Below are positions 3,471-43,245 of a stretch of DNA of 47,511 nucleotides, piece after piece. A program made the translations under genes and the position numbers. Location: the NCBI GenBank assembly GCA_017609385.1, contig JAFCEA010000005.1, forward strand, positions 1 through 47,511. The letters are read 5' to 3'. Source of the stretch: Candidatus Woesearchaeota archaeon. GTDB taxonomy: Archaea > Nanobdellota > Nanobdellia > Woesearchaeales > CG1-02-33-12. A model generated the notes under the pieces. It saw only the letters and a program-made list of their open reading frames with translations, was not told the DNA's origin and did not search any database. Every line of letters starts with the position of its first letter. The first letter of the stretch is position 1.

Positions 3471-3580
3471 GCGGGGGTAGCAAAGTCTGGTCAAATGCGC
3501 AGGACTTAAGACTAAATATAATTACAAGGCAGAAATCCTGTCTCTTAGTGAGTCCATGGGTTCAAATCCCATCCCCCGCA
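3471..3580 (+). tRNA. tRNA-Leu(UAA) with an anticodon-loop intron of about 24 nt
   Basis: Acceptor GCGGGGG/CCCCCGC plus A. Anticodon stem CAGGA (3500-3504)/TCCTG (3536-3540), loop CTTAAG..A with TAA at 3507-3509. Long variable arm TCTCTTAGTGAGTC. T arm ATGGG-TTCAAAT-CCCAT. Intron is about 3511-3534; I could not draw a clean BHB, so exact boundaries are uncertain. Confidence 0.88.
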
Positions 3581-29044: not shown

Positions 29045-29071
29045 TTAATAAAAGAATATTTGAAGTTTTAT

Positions 29072-29110
29072 AAAAAAATAAAAAACTGCCTACAAAAATA
29101 AAGAGGCAGG
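29072..29110 (-). terminator. Hairpin plus oligo-T tract downstream of the polybasic micro-ORF
   Basis: On the minus strand: CCTGCCT-ctttatttttgt-AGGCAG followed by TTTTTTATTTTTTT. Plus-strand stem arms are at 29086-29091 and 29104-29109. Confidence 0.35.
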
Positions 29111-29123
29111 TAAAAAAATAATC

Positions 29124-29249
29124 TTATCTTCTCCTTTTCTTCTTTGGTTTTTTCTTGACTTTTCTCTTGGCTTTCTTCTTAGCCTTTTTCTTAGGTTTTT
29201 TCTTGACTTTTCTCTTGGCTTTCTTCTTAGCCTTCTTCCTTGCTGCCAT
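29124..29249 (-). CDS. 41-aa polybasic protein (about 75% Lys/Arg) containing a 16-aa tandem repeat
   Basis: Hand translation: MAARKKAKKKAKRKVKKKPKKKAKKKAKRKVKKKPKKKRRR*. The ATG is preceded by gaggtga at a 7-nt spacing. Not in the ORF track (too short). The 48-bp repeat period runs 29146-29241. Confidence 0.5.
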   Translation of the reverse strand: MAARKKAKKKAKRKVKKKPKKKAKKKAKRKVKKKPKKKRRR

Positions 29250-29817
29250 TATTTTTTCACCTCTTGGTTTTTTGTGTTTTGAACAACACTAGTATTATTT
29301 TTTATTTTTATTGTTTAAATAGTTTTCGTTTTTTTCGAGAAAAAAATGTTCCTCGTCGATAATTTTTTGTTTTTTAAATTTAAAAAATAACTTTTTTGAA
29401 AATAAATTAAACTAAATTCTGAGGGAATAAAAGTAAAATTAATTGTCAAACTATAATAAATAGGTTTATAATCAAAAAAAATTAATTTTATCGTCGCTGT
29501 TAAAAAGATTAATGATCTAATTTAGGAAATATTTGATGAAAATTTTAAAAGTATATTAAATTTTTCAGAAAAAATAAAATATAGAGTTATTTGTCATAAA
29601 TAAAATTTTAAATACTTAGTTTGATTAGCAATTGAAATAAATTTTTCATAAAAAATTTTAATAAAAAAAGTTTTATGATTTTATTTTCAAAACCAGCAAA
29701 GAAATTATAAAAAATTAGTTAGTTCTGGAAAATGGTTACAAAGATTTATAAAGAATTAAAATAAAATAATAAAAAAGCTAAAGAATATAGCTATAATAAA
29801 AGAAGGAGGTGTAACTA

Positions 29818-40626: not shown

Positions 40627-43245
40627 TCAAACCTCATACCTTAGGATAGCAGCTATCTTGCCAAACTCCCTTAGCTGGATGCCCTCTCTTGTTTCTGTTG
40701 ATATTATCTTAACTGTAGTGCCAACTGTTTTTGCCAGCTTTTCCATTTCATCTATTGTATTGTCATCAAGGCTTTCTGAAAGCAATAAAGTATCTACGAC
40801 TCCAATCTCAAGGTTTTTCTTTACTTCATCAAGGCCATAGCTGACCATTCCTGGCTTTGTTGACAATAAATTAAAGAATTTTCCCATTATCTCTTTTTCA
40901 GCTGCTACCTCTTCTTTTGCCAGTACATCCTGGGATCTGTCTAATAATTCCTGCAGGCCAAATTCTTCGGTATAAGATAAATCCTTTATTGCAATTATCT
41001 TGTTTTTCACTTCTGTGGTTATATAACCCCCATCAATAAAATCATATTTTGTGGGGCCAGGGCCACCAACAATTATTCCCTTAAGATCTTTTAGTGTTAG
41101 AAACTGGTTTTTCATATATTCTGCAACCTTTTTATAGTGGTCTTTTGCAGCGCCCTCTCTTATTCTTGCAAAACGAGCTGCTGAATTATGGACAATTATT
41201 CCATTTGCTATGAAGTTTTTGTTTTTGACTGATATATCAATCATTTTTACTTTCTTATTGATTTTTTCTATCTTGTTTATCTTAATTGGAAGAATTGGAT
41301 AATTGTAAATAATCTCTAGTTGATTATACAGTTTTTTATCTTTAATATTAGATAAAATTGAATTTTTGAAAGTTTGTTTGCTCATCATTCTTTCATTTCT
41401 AAAAAAGTTATTAACTTTGGGAAACAATTCAAGATTATAGCCTGATTTTTCTATCAATTTCCTTATTTTTCTTCCTGAAACTATTATTTGTCTGGAATAG
41501 CTTGAATCTGATTTTTTATTAAGGAGAGCACTTAATTTATTAGTTTTTTCATGAAAGCTGAAACCAATGTGTTTTTTGAACAATTGAATTGATTTTTTTT
41601 CAGTTATATCAACTGTAAATCTTGGATTATTGCTATATTTATTTGCTTTATTGTCATATTCCAACAATGAACTTAAAATAGAAAACCTTAACAGTGCAAG
41701 TTGGGTATGTTGAGCCAATTTCTTATTATTTACCCCCAAGGCAATTCCTCTTTTGATATTAACATATCCATCTGCGTCAAATAATCCTCTTAAGAAAGCT
41801 GCAACAATCCCATTATCAGATTGGAGTATTTTTTTAGGGATTTCAGAATTTGAGGCTTTCCTTATTTCCAGGAATTCTTCTTTGATTAATCTAACCAATG
41901 GTCTGCTAGTAAATCTTATTTGATGGTAGTTTTTGCTTTCTCTAAATCTATAGCTGGAATTTATTTTGAAGAATTGATTGAATTTTCTCTGGTAAGTTAA
42001 CGCTAATTGTTTATTTTGCTCAAAGAAAGTAACCCTATCAGTTTCTATGCAACCATCATCTCCTATGAGATATCCTAGAAATTGAGCAAACTCTTCATTT
42101 AAACTATTTGGCAAATTTATATTTTTATACATATAAGGCTGGGTATAATCTTTTAAAAATTTATCAAAATTAATATTTAAGCTATTACACACCATTTTTA
42201 ATGGCATCCTGCATGCAGTTGATTTACCAACTTCATAACGGGAGATTGTTGTTTGTGCTAAACCTGCTTCTTCTGCTAATTGCCTTTGAAGCAATCCCTT
42301 TTTTAATCTTCTTTTCTTTAGAAATTCCTGGCCTTCTCTGGTTATGATAAAAGAATTATAATATTTTTTTGAATTTATTTCTTGTATTTTTCCTTTGATG
42401 TATATTTTTTCAGGCATTATTAGATAATCTCCCTGTTTTAATTCCTCAGCAGATTTTTCAATGATTCTTTCAGAAGTTGCTACAAAAAACAAATGATCTT
42501 TAGATGATTGAATTTCTAAACGTGGATTTTTAGTAATAATCTTGTAAATTTTGTTCTTCTTTACATTCCATTTGTCTATGATATTTGAATCAAAAATTGC
42601 AAAATTGTTCTTAATCGTAACAGACTTAATTATGTTTGGATTATGAATAGTTTCAATTTTTGGAAGAGAACCATCAGATAATTGGATTAAGGACTCATTT
42701 ACAAGACATTGTCCTCCTGCCCTTTGTTTTCCAGGCACTTGTGAATGAGTTTTAACCAAAGGGATTATTGTTTTTCCCTTTAAAAGAGCAATGTTTGCAT
42801 CTCTCCTGTCTAGTACAACAAGACCATAAACCTCTTTTGTGTCAAGCATATCTCTCAACAAATCAAGAACAAACTGCTTGTCACACCTGTATATTCGGGT
42901 ATTTAAAGGCACTGGCGGCTCTATGCTCCATACTTCCAAATCAATCTGACCTTCTCTTTCAGCAACATTTCCAGAGAAAACAGCCAAGCCATTTTTTGGT
43001 GTCTGCTTAAATAAGCGCAAGTGCTGAATCATTCTTTCAAGGCCATCTATAACATTCTTCCTTGTTGTGGCTGATTTTATGTTAGCAGCAGTCCCCTGCT
43101 CCTGTTTCAGATGGTTTATTATTTTGTTTAAGTCATATCCTGTAGGCATATACACTGTAATAAGCTCTGTGTGCGGCCTTCTGAATACCTCGAGCTTCTT
43201 GATAAATTTCTTTAGTTCATACCTTTGTTTTTCAGTTAGTGCCAT
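40627..43245 (-). CDS. prf1: Peptide chain release factor aRF1, interrupted by an intein after the GGQ motif
   Basis: NIKS motif at residues 55-58. ...VPGKQRAGGQ (res 171-179) | intein (res 180-687) | SAARFARIREGAAKDHYKKV... The C-terminus ends GKIAAILRYEV. Exteins total 364 aa. Confidence 0.92.
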   Translation of the reverse strand: MALTEKQRYELKKFIKKLEVFRRPHTELITVYMPTGYDLNKIINHLKQEQGTAANIKSATTRKNVIDGLERMIQHLRLFKQTPKNGLAVFSGNVAEREGQIDLEVWSIEPPVPLNTRIYRCDKQFVLDLLRDMLDTKEVYGLVVLDRRDANIALLKGKTIIPLVKTHSQVPGKQRAGGQCLVNESLIQLSDGSLPKIETIHNPNIIKSVTIKNNFAIFDSNIIDKWNVKKNKIYKIITKNPRLEIQSSKDHLFFVATSERIIEKSAEELKQGDYLIMPEKIYIKGKIQEINSKKYYNSFIITREGQEFLKKRRLKKGLLQRQLAEEAGLAQTTISRYEVGKSTACRMPLKMVCNSLNINFDKFLKDYTQPYMYKNINLPNSLNEEFAQFLGYLIGDDGCIETDRVTFFEQNKQLALTYQRKFNQFFKINSSYRFRESKNYHQIRFTSRPLVRLIKEEFLEIRKASNSEIPKKILQSDNGIVAAFLRGLFDADGYVNIKRGIALGVNNKKLAQHTQLALLRFSILSSLLEYDNKANKYSNNPRFTVDITEKKSIQLFKKHIGFSFHEKTNKLSALLNKKSDSSYSRQIIVSGRKIRKLIEKSGYNLELFPKVNNFFRNERMMSKQTFKNSILSNIKDKKLYNQLEIIYNYPILPIKINKIEKINKKVKMIDISVKNKNFIANGIIVHNSAARFARIREGAAKDHYKKVAEYMKNQFLTLKDLKGIIVGGPGPTKYDFIDGGYITTEVKNKIIAIKDLSYTEEFGLQELLDRSQDVLAKEEVAAEKEIMGKFFNLLSTKPGMVSYGLDEVKKNLEIGVVDTLLLSESLDDNTIDEMEKLAKTVGTTVKIISTETREGIQLREFGKIAAILRYEV
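41185..42708 (-). mobile_element. Intein (508 aa): Hint splicing domain + XRE-type HTH + LAGLIDADG homing endonuclease
   Basis: Block A CLVNESLIQLSDGS (Cys1), block B SSKDHLFF (SxxH), LAGLIDADG motifs FLGYLIGDDGC and FLRGLFDADGYV, terminal IIVHN followed by the +1 Ser. HTH LLQRQLAEEAGLAQTTISRYEVGKS (nt about 42160-42333). Confidence 0.88.

What the first reader, a model, noticed from the sequence alone, without database searches (positions are those of the whole stretch)
41185..42708. Intein inserted exactly after the catalytic GGQ motif of release factor aRF1
The aRF1 reading frame runs ...HSQVPGKQRAGGQ then CLVNESL...(508 aa)...GIIVHN then SAARFARIREGA.... All intein hallmarks are present: Cys1, an SxxH block B, two LAGLIDADG motifs, a terminal HN and a +1 Ser. 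The insertion point is the universally conserved GGQ loop that triggers peptidyl-tRNA hydrolysis. Unspliced protein should therefore be inactive, and termination at all stop codons in this organism depends on protein splicing. Inteins favour such conserved active-site positions. I do not recall aRF1/eRF1 among the classical intein host proteins (polymerases, RFC, RNR, VMA, MCM, helicases, aIF5B and others), but I cannot verify that from memory.
Basis: partly seen in the sequence, partly recalled or inferred. Interest (0 to 1): 0.72.

Follow-up and report, generated by a model that had tools for sequence, protein, structure and literature searches.

The report
Mobile intein splitting archaeal release factor
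The gene for the archaeal translation-termination factor aRF1 in this Woesearchaeota-like genome is interrupted, exactly at its catalytic GGQ loop, by a genuine and recently mobile self-splicing intein with a homing endonuclease; this is a textbook kind of element in a host protein and site that I could not find described in the literature, although hundreds of copies already sit, mostly mislabelled, in public databases.

Summary
Confirmed. The ORF at 40627-43245 (-) encodes an 872-aa aRF1 precursor. Residues 180-687 (window 41185-42708) form a 508-aa class-1 intein inserted between Gln179 of GGQ and Ser688. Removing it in silico gives a 364-aa aRF1 (TIGR03676, 427 bits, cut-off 234.7).

All splicing residues (Cys1, SxxH, block-F Asp, His-Asn, Ser+1) are invariant in 121 homologues. 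The AlphaFold model (pLDDT 93) matches solved intein-endonucleases (TliVMA, PI-PfuI, PI-PkoII).

Syntenic relatives carry intein-free alleles that differ by exactly this 1524-bp indel. Intein dS (0.12-0.20) is 2-4.6 times lower than extein dS (0.33-0.58). Intein and extein phylogenies disagree. The endonuclease domain is under purifying selection. So this is a homing intein that moved recently, not a fixed relic.

The same site is occupied in Woese-/Nano-, Aenigmat- and Micrarchaeota. NCBI labels most copies "helix-turn-helix domain-containing protein". Four literature searches found no description.

Verdict: a new member of a known kind, moderate interest. It has an extra HTH_3 module, and this allele has a unique codon duplication in LAGLIDADG motif 1.

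In passing, Aenigmatarchaeota aRF1 genes, with or without the intein, read GG[W/M/F]SQ instead of GGQ. That may be the more novel lead.

The parts
40627..43245 (-). aRF1 precursor gene (872 codons plus TAA stop): N-extein, intein, C-extein in one frame
   Evidence: TIGR03676 398 bits unspliced
42709..43245 (-). N-extein, aa 1-179: aRF1 domain 1 (NIKS at aa 55-58, YxCxxxF at aa 119-125) and the first part of domain 2, ending in GGQ
   Evidence: eRF1_1 57.5 bits
41185..42708 (-). 508-aa class-1 intein (Hint splicing domain + HTH_3 module + double-motif LAGLIDADG endonuclease)
   Evidence: exact 1524-bp indel relative to intein-free alleles; GC 27.6% against 38-39% in the exteins
40630..41184 (-). 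C-extein, aa 688-872, starting with Ser+1 (SAARFARIRE): rest of aRF1 domain 2 and domain 3
   Evidence: eRF1_2 and eRF1_3 matches
42667..42708 (-). Intein block A (CLVNESLIQLSDGS); Cys1 is the first nucleophile
   Evidence: Cys1 121/121 and Gly13 121/121
42481..42507 (-). Intein block B (SSKDHLFFV); S69-x-x-H72 is the TxxH motif
   Evidence: S69 121/121, H72 121/121
42145..42339 (-). Five-helix HTH_3 (XRE/Cro-C1-like) module, intein aa ~124-188, between the N-terminal Hint lobe and the endonuclease
   Evidence: Pfam HTH_3 37 bits; sequence hit to controller protein C.BclI 2b5a; AF2 helices 124-188; cleanly deleted in homologue P0043
42043..42090 (-). LAGLIDADG motif 1 (FAQFLGYLIGDDGCIE) with catalytic Asp218
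   Evidence: G212, G216, G219 and E222 invariant; D218 120/121
42055..42060 (-). GAT-GAT: a one-codon duplication (extra Asp217) immediately before the catalytic Asp of motif 1, unique to this allele among 121 sequences
41761..41805 (-). LAGLIDADG motif 2 (VAAFLRGLFDADGYV) with catalytic Asp/Glu313
   Evidence: D311, A312 and G314 invariant; position 313 is E in 111 and D in 10
41185..41244 (-). Intein blocks F and G (MIDISVKNKNFIANGIIVHN): block-F Asp491, penultimate His507, terminal Asn508
   Evidence: D491, F499, H507 and N508 are 121/121; TIGR01443 intein_Cterm 21.9 bits, cut-off 15.6

Best explanation
This is a splicing-competent, recently mobile class-1 intein. It carries a double-motif LAGLIDADG homing endonuclease and an accessory HTH_3 DNA-binding module. 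It sits in the orthologous, probably only, aRF1 gene of a Woesearchaeota-type DPANN archaeon, between Gln179 of the GGQ loop and Ser688.

Proposed mechanism. Steps 1-4 are inferred from invariant residues and established intein chemistry, not observed.
1. The 872-aa precursor folds and the Hint domain drives an N-S acyl shift at Gln179-Cys180.
2. Ser688 attacks the thioester.
3. Asn687 cyclises and frees the intein.
4. An O-N shift leaves a native ...GGQ-SAARF... peptide bond, giving a 364-aa aRF1.
5. Until then the 508-residue insert at the tip of domain 2 should keep the GGQ loop out of the peptidyl-transferase centre. Termination at TAA, TAG and TGA, all used in the window, therefore requires splicing.
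6. The excised intein acts as a site-specific endonuclease on intein-free aRF1 alleles at the GGQ-coding sequence and is copied in by recombinational repair (homing).

The comparative data show that such spread has happened recently among related lineages.
For: Anatomy:
- The boundaries are exact and the spliced aRF1 scores better than the precursor.
- All catalytic splicing residues and both LAGLIDADG acidic residues are invariant or near-invariant in 121 homologues.
- The AF2 model has pLDDT 93.3 and pTM 0.91. The best Foldseek hits are the TliVMA intein 7qss (E 8e-22, TM 0.66/0.77), PI-PfuI 1dq3, PI-PkoII 2cw7 and PI-SceI. The endonuclease core matches I-DmoI.

Empty sites:
- Thirteen clusters of intein-free aRF1 are 89-94% identical to the spliced extein.
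- Five such loci are syntenic (L37ae - aRF1 - 222-aa ORF - aIF5A - M50 peptidase - HAD - PPDK). They align to the window at 79-86% nucleotide identity, with the break exactly at 42708/41184.

Mobility:
- Intein-bearing and intein-free alleles interleave on the extein tree (at least 33 state changes).
- In all six pairs among four close intein-bearing alleles, dS of the intein is 0.12-0.20 against 0.33-0.58 for the exteins.
- BLASTP shows pairs with 58.6% identical exteins but 91.1% identical inteins, and the reverse (91.2% against 62.5%).
- Intein GC is 27.6% against 38-39% for the exteins.

Selection:
- Intein dN/dS is 0.14-0.20, and 0.11 for the LAGLIDADG domain.

Only copy seen:
- No other aRF1 or related intein lies in the window.
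Against: - Nothing here shows splicing or DNA cleavage directly.
- This allele alone has an extra Asp codon (GAT duplication) right before the catalytic Asp of LAGLIDADG motif 1. That could impair the endonuclease, so the element may be immobile in this particular genome.
- Only 47.5 kb of the genome is visible, so a second aRF1 cannot be excluded.
- The lower dS of the intein could be partly compositional, since the insert is AT-rich, although a 2-4.6-fold gap in all six pairs is large.
- The homologue sets are 'best 120' lists and not random samples, so counts of gains and losses are rough.
- The HTH segment shows dN/dS of about 1.4 in one pair, based on few sites. Its role is unproven.
Confidence: 0.82

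Rival explanations
1. The intein is splicing-competent but its endonuclease is already dead in this genome. The unique Asp217 insertion distorts the end of the first LAGLIDADG helix. The element is then a stranded passenger in the decay phase of the homing cycle, inherited vertically from now on.
For: The GAT duplication is present in 1 of 121 sequences and lies directly before the catalytic Asp218. The homing-cycle model (established knowledge) predicts such decay once a population is saturated.
Against: The rest of the endonuclease domain is intact and under purifying selection relative to its closest relatives (dN/dS 0.11). One-residue changes at helix ends are sometimes tolerated. About three quarters of the closest allele clusters are still intein-free (13 against 4), so targets remain.
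Confidence: 0.25
2. The intein has been co-opted as a post-translational switch. Splicing is conditional (on redox state of Cys1, temperature or metals), so the cell gates the supply of active aRF1, and hence global termination, under stress. Alternatively, the freed HTH-bearing intein doubles as a transcription regulator.
For: The position at the catalytic loop of an essential factor makes splicing obligatory for activity. The intein is about as conserved as its host across the 55-94% identity range (60% against 64-70%). An XRE-type HTH resembling controller proteins is present. Conditional splicing is documented for other archaeal inteins such as RadA; that work is cited in the text retrieved.
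Against: The presence/absence polymorphism among near-identical hosts and the recent horizontal spread show the host does well without the intein. The HTH module is dispensable (P0043) and evolves fast. No regulatory evidence of any kind was obtained.
Confidence: 0.08
3. The insertion is a non-splicing relic that inactivates this aRF1 copy, and a second intact aRF1 elsewhere does the work.
For: Only 47.5 kb of the genome is visible, and no experiment was done.
Against: The 2.6-kb frame is uninterrupted. Every splicing residue is invariant. Exteins are under strong purifying selection (dN/dS 0.06-0.09). The gene lies in the same syntenic slot as the aRF1 of intein-free relatives. None of the 80 GTDB genomes retrieved showed two aRF1 loci, though that scan was truncated.
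Confidence: 0.03

Closest known systems
Archaeal intein-homing endonucleases with solved structures: TliVMA/PhoVMA inteins (7qss, 7qsu, 7qst), PI-PfuI (RIR1 intein, 1dq3), PI-PkoII (Pol intein, 2cw7)
   Same: Same overall architecture: a Hint splicing domain split by a double-motif LAGLIDADG endonuclease. Foldseek E 8e-22 to 1e-14 with TM up to 0.77; sequence hits at E 1e-13 to 5e-6. The class-1 residues are the same (Cys1, TxxH, HN, +1 nucleophile). Like them it is inserted in a conserved active-site loop of an essential protein.
   Different: Only 12-18% sequence identity. The host is aRF1 at the GGQ loop instead of V-ATPase, RNR or DNA polymerase. In place of the stirrup or DRR-type accessory DNA-binding region it carries an XRE-type HTH_3 module. 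It is mesophile-style and AT-rich rather than from Thermococcales.
Inteins in other archaeal translation and RNA-processing factors (aIF2/IF5B-type IF-2 intein; FttA/aCPSF1 intein P0312)
   Same: NCBIfam PRK14845 (intein-containing IF-2) matches the intein region at 84.5 bits. P0312 (FttA host) and P0317 (metallo-beta-lactamase host) carry inteins 27-31% identical to this one, with the same HTH_3 + LAGLIDADG_3 layout.
   Different: Different host proteins and insertion sites. Relatives outside aRF1 are at most about 31% identical, whereas aRF1-borne relatives range from 28% to 94%.
aRF1/eRF1 (TIGR03676; classical aeRF-1 of Burroughs & Aravind 2019, PMC6514570)
   Same: The spliced product is a full three-domain aRF1 with NIKS, YxCxxxF and GGQ-S-x-x-R-F motifs.
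   Different: The gene is interrupted by 1524 nt at GGQ|S. That paper, the broadest survey of the superfamily I could read, does not mention inteins (0 occurrences).

Membership tests
Class-1 intein (Hint splicing domain) | Cys/Ser/Thr as first intein residue | tested here: met
   Cys180 of the precursor; Cys in 121/121 homologues
Class-1 intein (Hint splicing domain) | Block B TxxH motif | tested here: met
   S69-K-D-H72; Ser and His are 121/121. Ser replaces Thr, a conservative variant (my inference; not looked up)
Class-1 intein (Hint splicing domain) | Blocks F/G: conserved Asp, penultimate His, C-terminal Asn | tested here: met
   D491, H507 and N508 all 121/121; TIGR01443 21.9 bits against cut-off 15.6
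Class-1 intein (Hint splicing domain) | Ser/Thr/Cys at +1 of the C-extein | tested here: met
   Ser688, 121/121
Class-1 intein (Hint splicing domain) | In-frame insertion whose removal restores a contiguous host protein; intein-free alleles exist | tested here: met
   Spliced product scores 427.5 bits on TIGR03676. There is an exact 1524-bp indel against five syntenic intein-free loci
Class-1 intein (Hint splicing domain) | Hint fold | tested here: met
   Pfam Intein_splicing 73.5 bits against cut-off 35.8. AF2 pLDDT 93 with top Foldseek hits to solved inteins
Class-1 intein (Hint splicing domain) | Autocatalytic protein splicing actually occurs | not testable with these tools
   Needs expression of the precursor and SDS-PAGE or mass spectrometry
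LAGLIDADG homing endonuclease (single-chain, two motifs) | Two LAGLIDADG helices, each ending in a catalytic Asp/Glu | tested here: met
   LGYLIGDDG (D218 120/121) and LRGLFDADG (E/D313 121/121); LAGLIDADG_3 60.6 bits
LAGLIDADG homing endonuclease (single-chain, two motifs) | Pseudo-symmetric alpha-beta-beta-alpha-beta-beta-alpha core fold | tested here: met
   Foldseek hits to I-DmoI, I-Tsp061I and I-WcaI with TM(target) 0.55-0.71
LAGLIDADG homing endonuclease (single-chain, two motifs) | Active site intact in this particular allele | tested here: inconclusive
   A unique one-codon insertion (Asp217) lies next to the catalytic Asp218; its effect is unknown
LAGLIDADG homing endonuclease (single-chain, two motifs) | Evidence of homing (horizontal spread into empty alleles) | tested here: met
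   Presence/absence polymorphism; dS of intein 2-4.6 times lower than of extein; intein/extein discordance
LAGLIDADG homing endonuclease (single-chain, two motifs) | Site-specific cleavage of the intein-free target DNA | not testable with these tools
   Needs purified protein and target DNA
aRF1/eRF1 class-I release factor (TIGR03676) | Full-length match above the equivalog cut-off, with three eRF1 domains | tested here: met
   427.5 bits against 234.7; eRF1_1, eRF1_2 and eRF1_3 all above their Pfam cut-offs
aRF1/eRF1 class-I release factor (TIGR03676) | NIKS, YxCxxxF and GGQ motifs | tested here: met
   NIKS at aa 55, YRCDKQF at aa 119, GGQ at aa 177-179
aRF1/eRF1 class-I release factor (TIGR03676) | Sole class-I release factor of the genome | tested here: inconclusive
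   No second copy in the 47.5-kb window and an orthologous syntenic position; the rest of the genome is not available

The most novel reading that the evidence does not exclude
The aRF1 intein is not purely selfish. Because it plugs the GGQ loop, the rate or conditionality of its splicing (for example, reversible oxidation of Cys1, or binding of the XRE-type HTH module to DNA or RNA) would set the cellular level of active release factor. That would give these reduced DPANN cells a post-translational throttle on all translation termination. The persistence of the same-site intein across four DPANN phyla, at conservation equal to that of the host protein, would reflect this benefit.
Probability: 0.07. 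Interest if true: 0.8.

Novelty: new member of a known kind. Interest (0 to 1): 0.42.

Why it matters
1. It adds the class-I release factor, at its catalytic loop, to the list of intein hosts. The main survey I could read says translation core components 'contain few inteins' and never mentions release factors (PMC4760082).

2. It is a clean natural example of a currently cycling homing intein. Empty and filled alleles occur in near-identical, syntenic backgrounds, which is useful for population-level studies of homing in uncultured DPANN archaea.

3. It has a practical consequence. NCBI names most of these precursors 'helix-turn-helix domain-containing protein' or 'LAGLIDADG family homing endonuclease'. 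aRF1 therefore looks absent from many MAG annotations. As far as I recall, TIGR03676 is also used as an archaeal marker gene, so marker-based completeness or phylogeny pipelines may mishandle it.

4. A compact, well-folded Cys1/Ser+1 intein with Gln at -1 and a modular HTH may interest protein engineers.

5. Following its relatives exposed aRF1 proteins with GGxSQ in place of GGQ. This touches a motif usually described as universal.

Tried and rejected
- **Literature.** Eight paper runs failed with time-outs, as did three paper-reading runs. Four later searches worked and gave only unrelated hits: ARF1 GTPase or auxin factors, intein purification tags, spider silk. The supplementary tables of Novikova 2016 are not held, so its full host list could not be checked.
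- **Viral vectors.** A scan of viral contigs with the intein alignment found no relative.
- **Was the Q-to-W/F/M change at the -1 position caused by, or linked to, the intein?** I considered a shifted splice junction, recoding, or a dead paralogue. All were rejected. The codon is a plain TGG. Intein-free orthologues in 23 GTDB species have the same GGW/GGM. They score 443-462 bits on TIGR03676.
- **Whether those genomes have a second GGQ-type aRF1** could not be settled.
- **An oddity in the extein search.** The search with the spliced extein listed only intein-free proteins, although intein-bearing ones are equally similar. The reason is unknown, so I did not use that list to estimate allele frequencies beyond counting clusters.
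- **Co-conversion tracts.** The C-extein is 92% identical to L004/L005 against about 83-88% for the N-extein and flanks. This is suggestive but not seen with L001, so I make no claim.
- **Other features.** Rfam found no RNA family in or near the gene. The 80-aa antisense ORF at 42768-43010 (+) was treated as spurious.
Full report
**Observation**

The window holds one long minus-strand ORF at 40627-43245 (872 aa). Its translation reads ...HSQVPGKQRAGGQ|CLVNESL...NGIIVHN|SAARFARIREGA. The segment from Cys180 to Asn687 maps to window 41185-42708.

Pfam finds eRF1_1, a split eRF1_2 and eRF1_3 outside this segment. Inside it are Intein_splicing (73.5 bits), LAGLIDADG_3 (60.6 bits) and HTH_3 (37 bits). 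Removing the segment in silico gives a 364-aa protein. It scores 427.5 bits on the NCBIfam equivalog TIGR03676 aRF1_eRF1 (cut-off 234.7), against 398 bits for the precursor. The eRF1_2 domain becomes one contiguous match.

**Anatomy**

I aligned 121 full-length homologues. The following positions are invariant:
- the GGQ residues before the intein
- Cys1
- block B Ser69 and His72
- block F Asp491
- His507-Asn508
- Ser+1

The two LAGLIDADG motifs are LGYLIGDDG and LRGLFDADG. They keep their catalytic acidic residues: Asp218 in 120/121 and Glu/Asp313 in 121/121.

The window allele alone has a GAT-GAT codon duplication (extra Asp217, window 42055-42060) immediately before the catalytic Asp of motif 1.

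An AlphaFold2 model built on 70 sequences is confident (mean pLDDT 93.3, pTM 0.91). Its best Foldseek matches in the PDB are intein-endonucleases: TliVMA 7qss (E 8e-22), PI-PfuI 1dq3, PI-PkoII 2cw7, PhoVMA 7qst and PI-SceI. The endonuclease core matches I-DmoI. The sequence search of the PDB agrees.

Five helices lie between the N-terminal Hint lobe and the endonuclease, at intein aa ~124-188. They form an XRE/Cro-type HTH_3 module whose nearest solved relative by sequence is the controller protein C.BclI. One homologue, P0043, lacks exactly this module through a clean 72-aa deletion. Several more distant aRF1 inteins are 412-435 aa long. The module is therefore an optional add-on.

**Context**

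The neighbours are aIF5A, a 222-aa ORF, ribosomal protein L37ae, a prefoldin-like ORF, an M50 peptidase and PPDK. The window contains no second aRF1 and no related intein; profile HMMs were run against all six-frame ORFs. All three stop codons are in use: TAA 28, TAG 7, TGA 5.

The spliced extein is 89.8% identical to the intein-free aRF1 of 'Candidatus Woesearchaeota archaeon CG10_big_fil_rev_8_21_14_0_10_33_12' (L082). The organism is thus a Woesearchaeota-type DPANN archaeon.

**Is it fixed or mobile?**

A search with the whole precursor returned 717 hits. The 120 listed all have the same architecture at 55-94% identity, and those carrying a source name are from Woesearchaeota or Nanoarchaeota MAGs. 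A search with the spliced extein returned intein-free 364-aa aRF1 proteins up to 94% identical, with 13 clusters at 89% or more.

Five such genes were fetched with their flanks. They are syntenic with the window and align to it over about 13 kb at 79-86% nucleotide identity. The alignment breaks exactly at window positions 42708 and 41184. The gene alignment shows a single 1524-nt gap between the Gln codon CAA and the Ser codon TCA.

Filled and empty alleles interleave on an extein distance tree. Among the closest relatives they alternate at 94.2%, 94.0% and 92.3% identity. Fitch parsimony needs at least 33 changes, against 63-77 for shuffled labels.

For the four closest intein-bearing alleles I had DNA: the window, L088, L090 and L091. 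In all six pairs the synonymous divergence of the intein (0.12-0.20) is 2 to 4.6 times lower than that of the exteins (0.33-0.58). dN/dS is 0.14-0.20 for the intein, 0.11 for the LAGLIDADG domain and 0.06-0.09 for the exteins.

At greater distances there are gross discordances, confirmed by BLASTP:
- P0083 against P0100: exteins 58.6% identical, inteins 91.1%
- P0100 against P0101: exteins 46%, inteins 83%
- P0052 against P0083: exteins 91.2%, inteins 62.5%

The intein is also compositionally foreign, at 27.6% GC against 38-39% in the exteins. That places it in the lowest 2.4% of equal-sized windows.

Together these results show an element that has moved between lineages after they diverged and whose endonuclease is kept by selection. 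That is the signature of an active homing cycle, not of an ancient fixed insertion.

**Mechanism**

What is shown: the boundaries, the conserved catalytic residues, the fold, the empty sites and the horizontal spread.

What is inferred from established intein chemistry:
1. An N-S acyl shift at Gln179-Cys180.
2. Transesterification to Ser688.
3. Cyclisation of Asn687.
4. An O-N shift, giving a native GGQ-S bond.

Two further points are also inferred. First, a 508-residue insert at the tip of domain 2 should keep the GGQ loop out of the peptidyl-transferase centre, so the precursor is inactive. Second, the freed intein cuts the GGQ-coding region of empty alleles.

Whether this allele's endonuclease still works is open because of the extra Asp217. 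Whether this is the only aRF1 of the genome cannot be seen from 47.5 kb. The orthologous syntenic position and strong purifying selection on the exteins argue that it is the working copy.

**Breadth**

An exhaustive profile-free search of 1.84 billion cluster representatives with the intein alone gave 583 hits at E <= 1e-10. Of the best 149, 63 are aRF1 proteins with the intein at the same position, down to 28% intein identity.

Named examples come from Aenigmatarchaeota and Micrarchaeota. One is 72% identical in its extein to a Nanohaloarchaea aRF1.

Two proteins, P0294 and P0311, carry a second intein immediately before the Cys of the YxCxxxF stop-codon-recognition motif (YLYM|C...VHN|CDDHYH). 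aRF1 therefore has at least two intein sites, both in functional motifs.

The nearest inteins outside aRF1 are 27-31% identical. They sit in MCM, RadA, a terminase-like ATPase, a RecJ/GAN-like DHH protein, FttA/aCPSF1 and a metallo-beta-lactamase. The last two have the same HTH_3 module. No relative was found on viral contigs.

**Comparison with what is known**

In kind this is an ordinary class-1 intein with a LAGLIDADG homing endonuclease. All sequence- and fold-level membership criteria are met, and only the biochemical ones are untestable here.

What is new is the host protein and site, and to a lesser degree the XRE-type HTH accessory module.

- Novikova et al. 2016 (PMC4760082) list the top archaeal intein hosts without aRF1. 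They state that translation components contain few inteins, and they never use the words 'release factor'.
- Burroughs and Aravind 2019 (PMC6514570), on release-factor evolution, never mention inteins.
- Full-text searches for intein with aRF1, GGQ or eRF1, and for DPANN with intein or GGQ, gave nothing relevant.

The sequences themselves are plentiful in public databases. JGI's pipeline labels some 'peptide subunit release factor 1 (eRF1)/intein/homing endonuclease', while NCBI calls most 'helix-turn-helix domain-containing protein'.

I therefore rate it a new member of a known kind, of moderate interest.

**A side lead that may matter more**

Fourteen of the 63 aRF1 hosts do not have Gln before the intein. 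They have Trp, Phe, Met or Ser instead, for example KGGW|C...HN|SQQRY. The Trp codon is a plain TGG.

A scan of GTDB species genomes showed that this has nothing to do with the intein. Intein-free aRF1 genes of 14 Aenigmatarchaeota species read GGW and 9 read GGM. These include the complete 742-kb chromosome CP070804.1 and a 791-kb contig. Other Aenigmatarchaeota and all other archaea retrieved read GGQ.

These proteins are full-length classical aRF1. They score 462 and 443 bits on TIGR03676, against 473 for a GGQ sibling. They keep NIKS and YxCxxxF.

In 22 of the 23 variant species the motif is GG[W/M]SQ, whereas only 4 of 57 GGQ genes have GGQSQ. [quoted passage not shown] The simplest reading is that the catalytic Gln has shifted by two residues in these lineages, via a GGQSQ intermediate.

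No genome appeared twice among the 80 loci, but the scan was truncated. A second GGQ-type factor per genome is therefore not excluded. I could not find this described. It lies outside the window and is reported as noticed in passing.

Noticed in passing
Related loci L008-L019, L021, L022 (GGW) and L023, L026, L028, L030, L033, L044, L051, L057, L083 (GGM); also proteins P0253, P0267, P0269, P0273, P0274, P0282, P0286, P0295, P0297, P0300-P0302, P0313, P0325: Classical aRF1 genes of two Aenigmatarchaeota clades, with or without the intein, have GG[W/M/F]SQ instead of the supposedly universal GGQ. They are full-length TIGR03676 matches (443-462 bits) and keep NIKS and YxCxxxF. The motif equals the GGxSQ of the aVLRF-1/acVLRF-1 families, which suggests a catalytic Gln shifted by two residues. 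A second GGQ-type factor in those genomes is not excluded.
   Followed up: partly
Proteins P0294 (aa ~124-367) and P0311 (aa ~130-638): A second intein insertion site in aRF1, directly before the Cys of the YxCxxxF stop-codon-recognition motif (YLYM|C...VHN|CDDHYH). It co-occurs with the GGQ-site intein in the same protein. One is a mini-intein and the other carries a LAGLIDADG domain.
   Followed up: partly
window 42055-42060 (-): A GAT-GAT codon duplication adds an Asp immediately before the catalytic Asp of LAGLIDADG motif 1. It is unique among 121 homologues and may impair this allele's endonuclease.
   Followed up: partly
Proteins P0001, P0011, P0013, P0015 and others (table): NCBI annotation names the intein-containing aRF1 precursors 'helix-turn-helix domain-containing protein' or 'LAGLIDADG family homing endonuclease'. 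aRF1 therefore looks absent from many DPANN MAG annotations. NCBIfam has intein-specific 'exception' models for GyrA, RtcB, Tes and others, but none for aRF1 appeared among the hits to this precursor.
   Followed up: no
Protein P0043 (802 aa) against window intein aa ~115-186: A clean 72-aa deletion removes exactly the HTH_3 module from an otherwise intact aRF1 intein, showing the module is a separable add-on. The HTH segment also shows dN/dS of about 1.4 between the window and L088, based on few sites.
   Followed up: partly
window 3471-3580 (+): Rfam calls a 110-nt tRNA (50.2 bits) that ARAGORN did not report, probably an intron-containing (and/or long-variable-arm) archaeal tRNA.
   Followed up: no
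window 29125-29244, within the AT-rich (24% GC) ORF-poor stretch 29045-29817: A 12-nt periodic repeat which, on the minus strand, encodes a tiny extremely basic peptide (MAARKKAKKKAKRKVKKKPKKKAKKKAKRKVKKKPKKKRRR). The surrounding ~770 bp has many short A/T-rich inverted repeats.
   Followed up: no
window 40629-41184 against L004/L005: The C-extein is about 92% identical in DNA to the intein-free alleles of L004/L005, while the N-extein and flanks are about 83-88% identical (dS 0.27 against 0.6). This may be a recombination or co-conversion tract next to the insertion site. It is not seen with L001.
   Followed up: partly
result list: The protein search with the spliced extein listed only intein-free aRF1 proteins, although intein-containing ones (for example P0001, 94% identical exteins) should score similarly. 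This looks like a property of the search tool, not of the biology.
   Followed up: no
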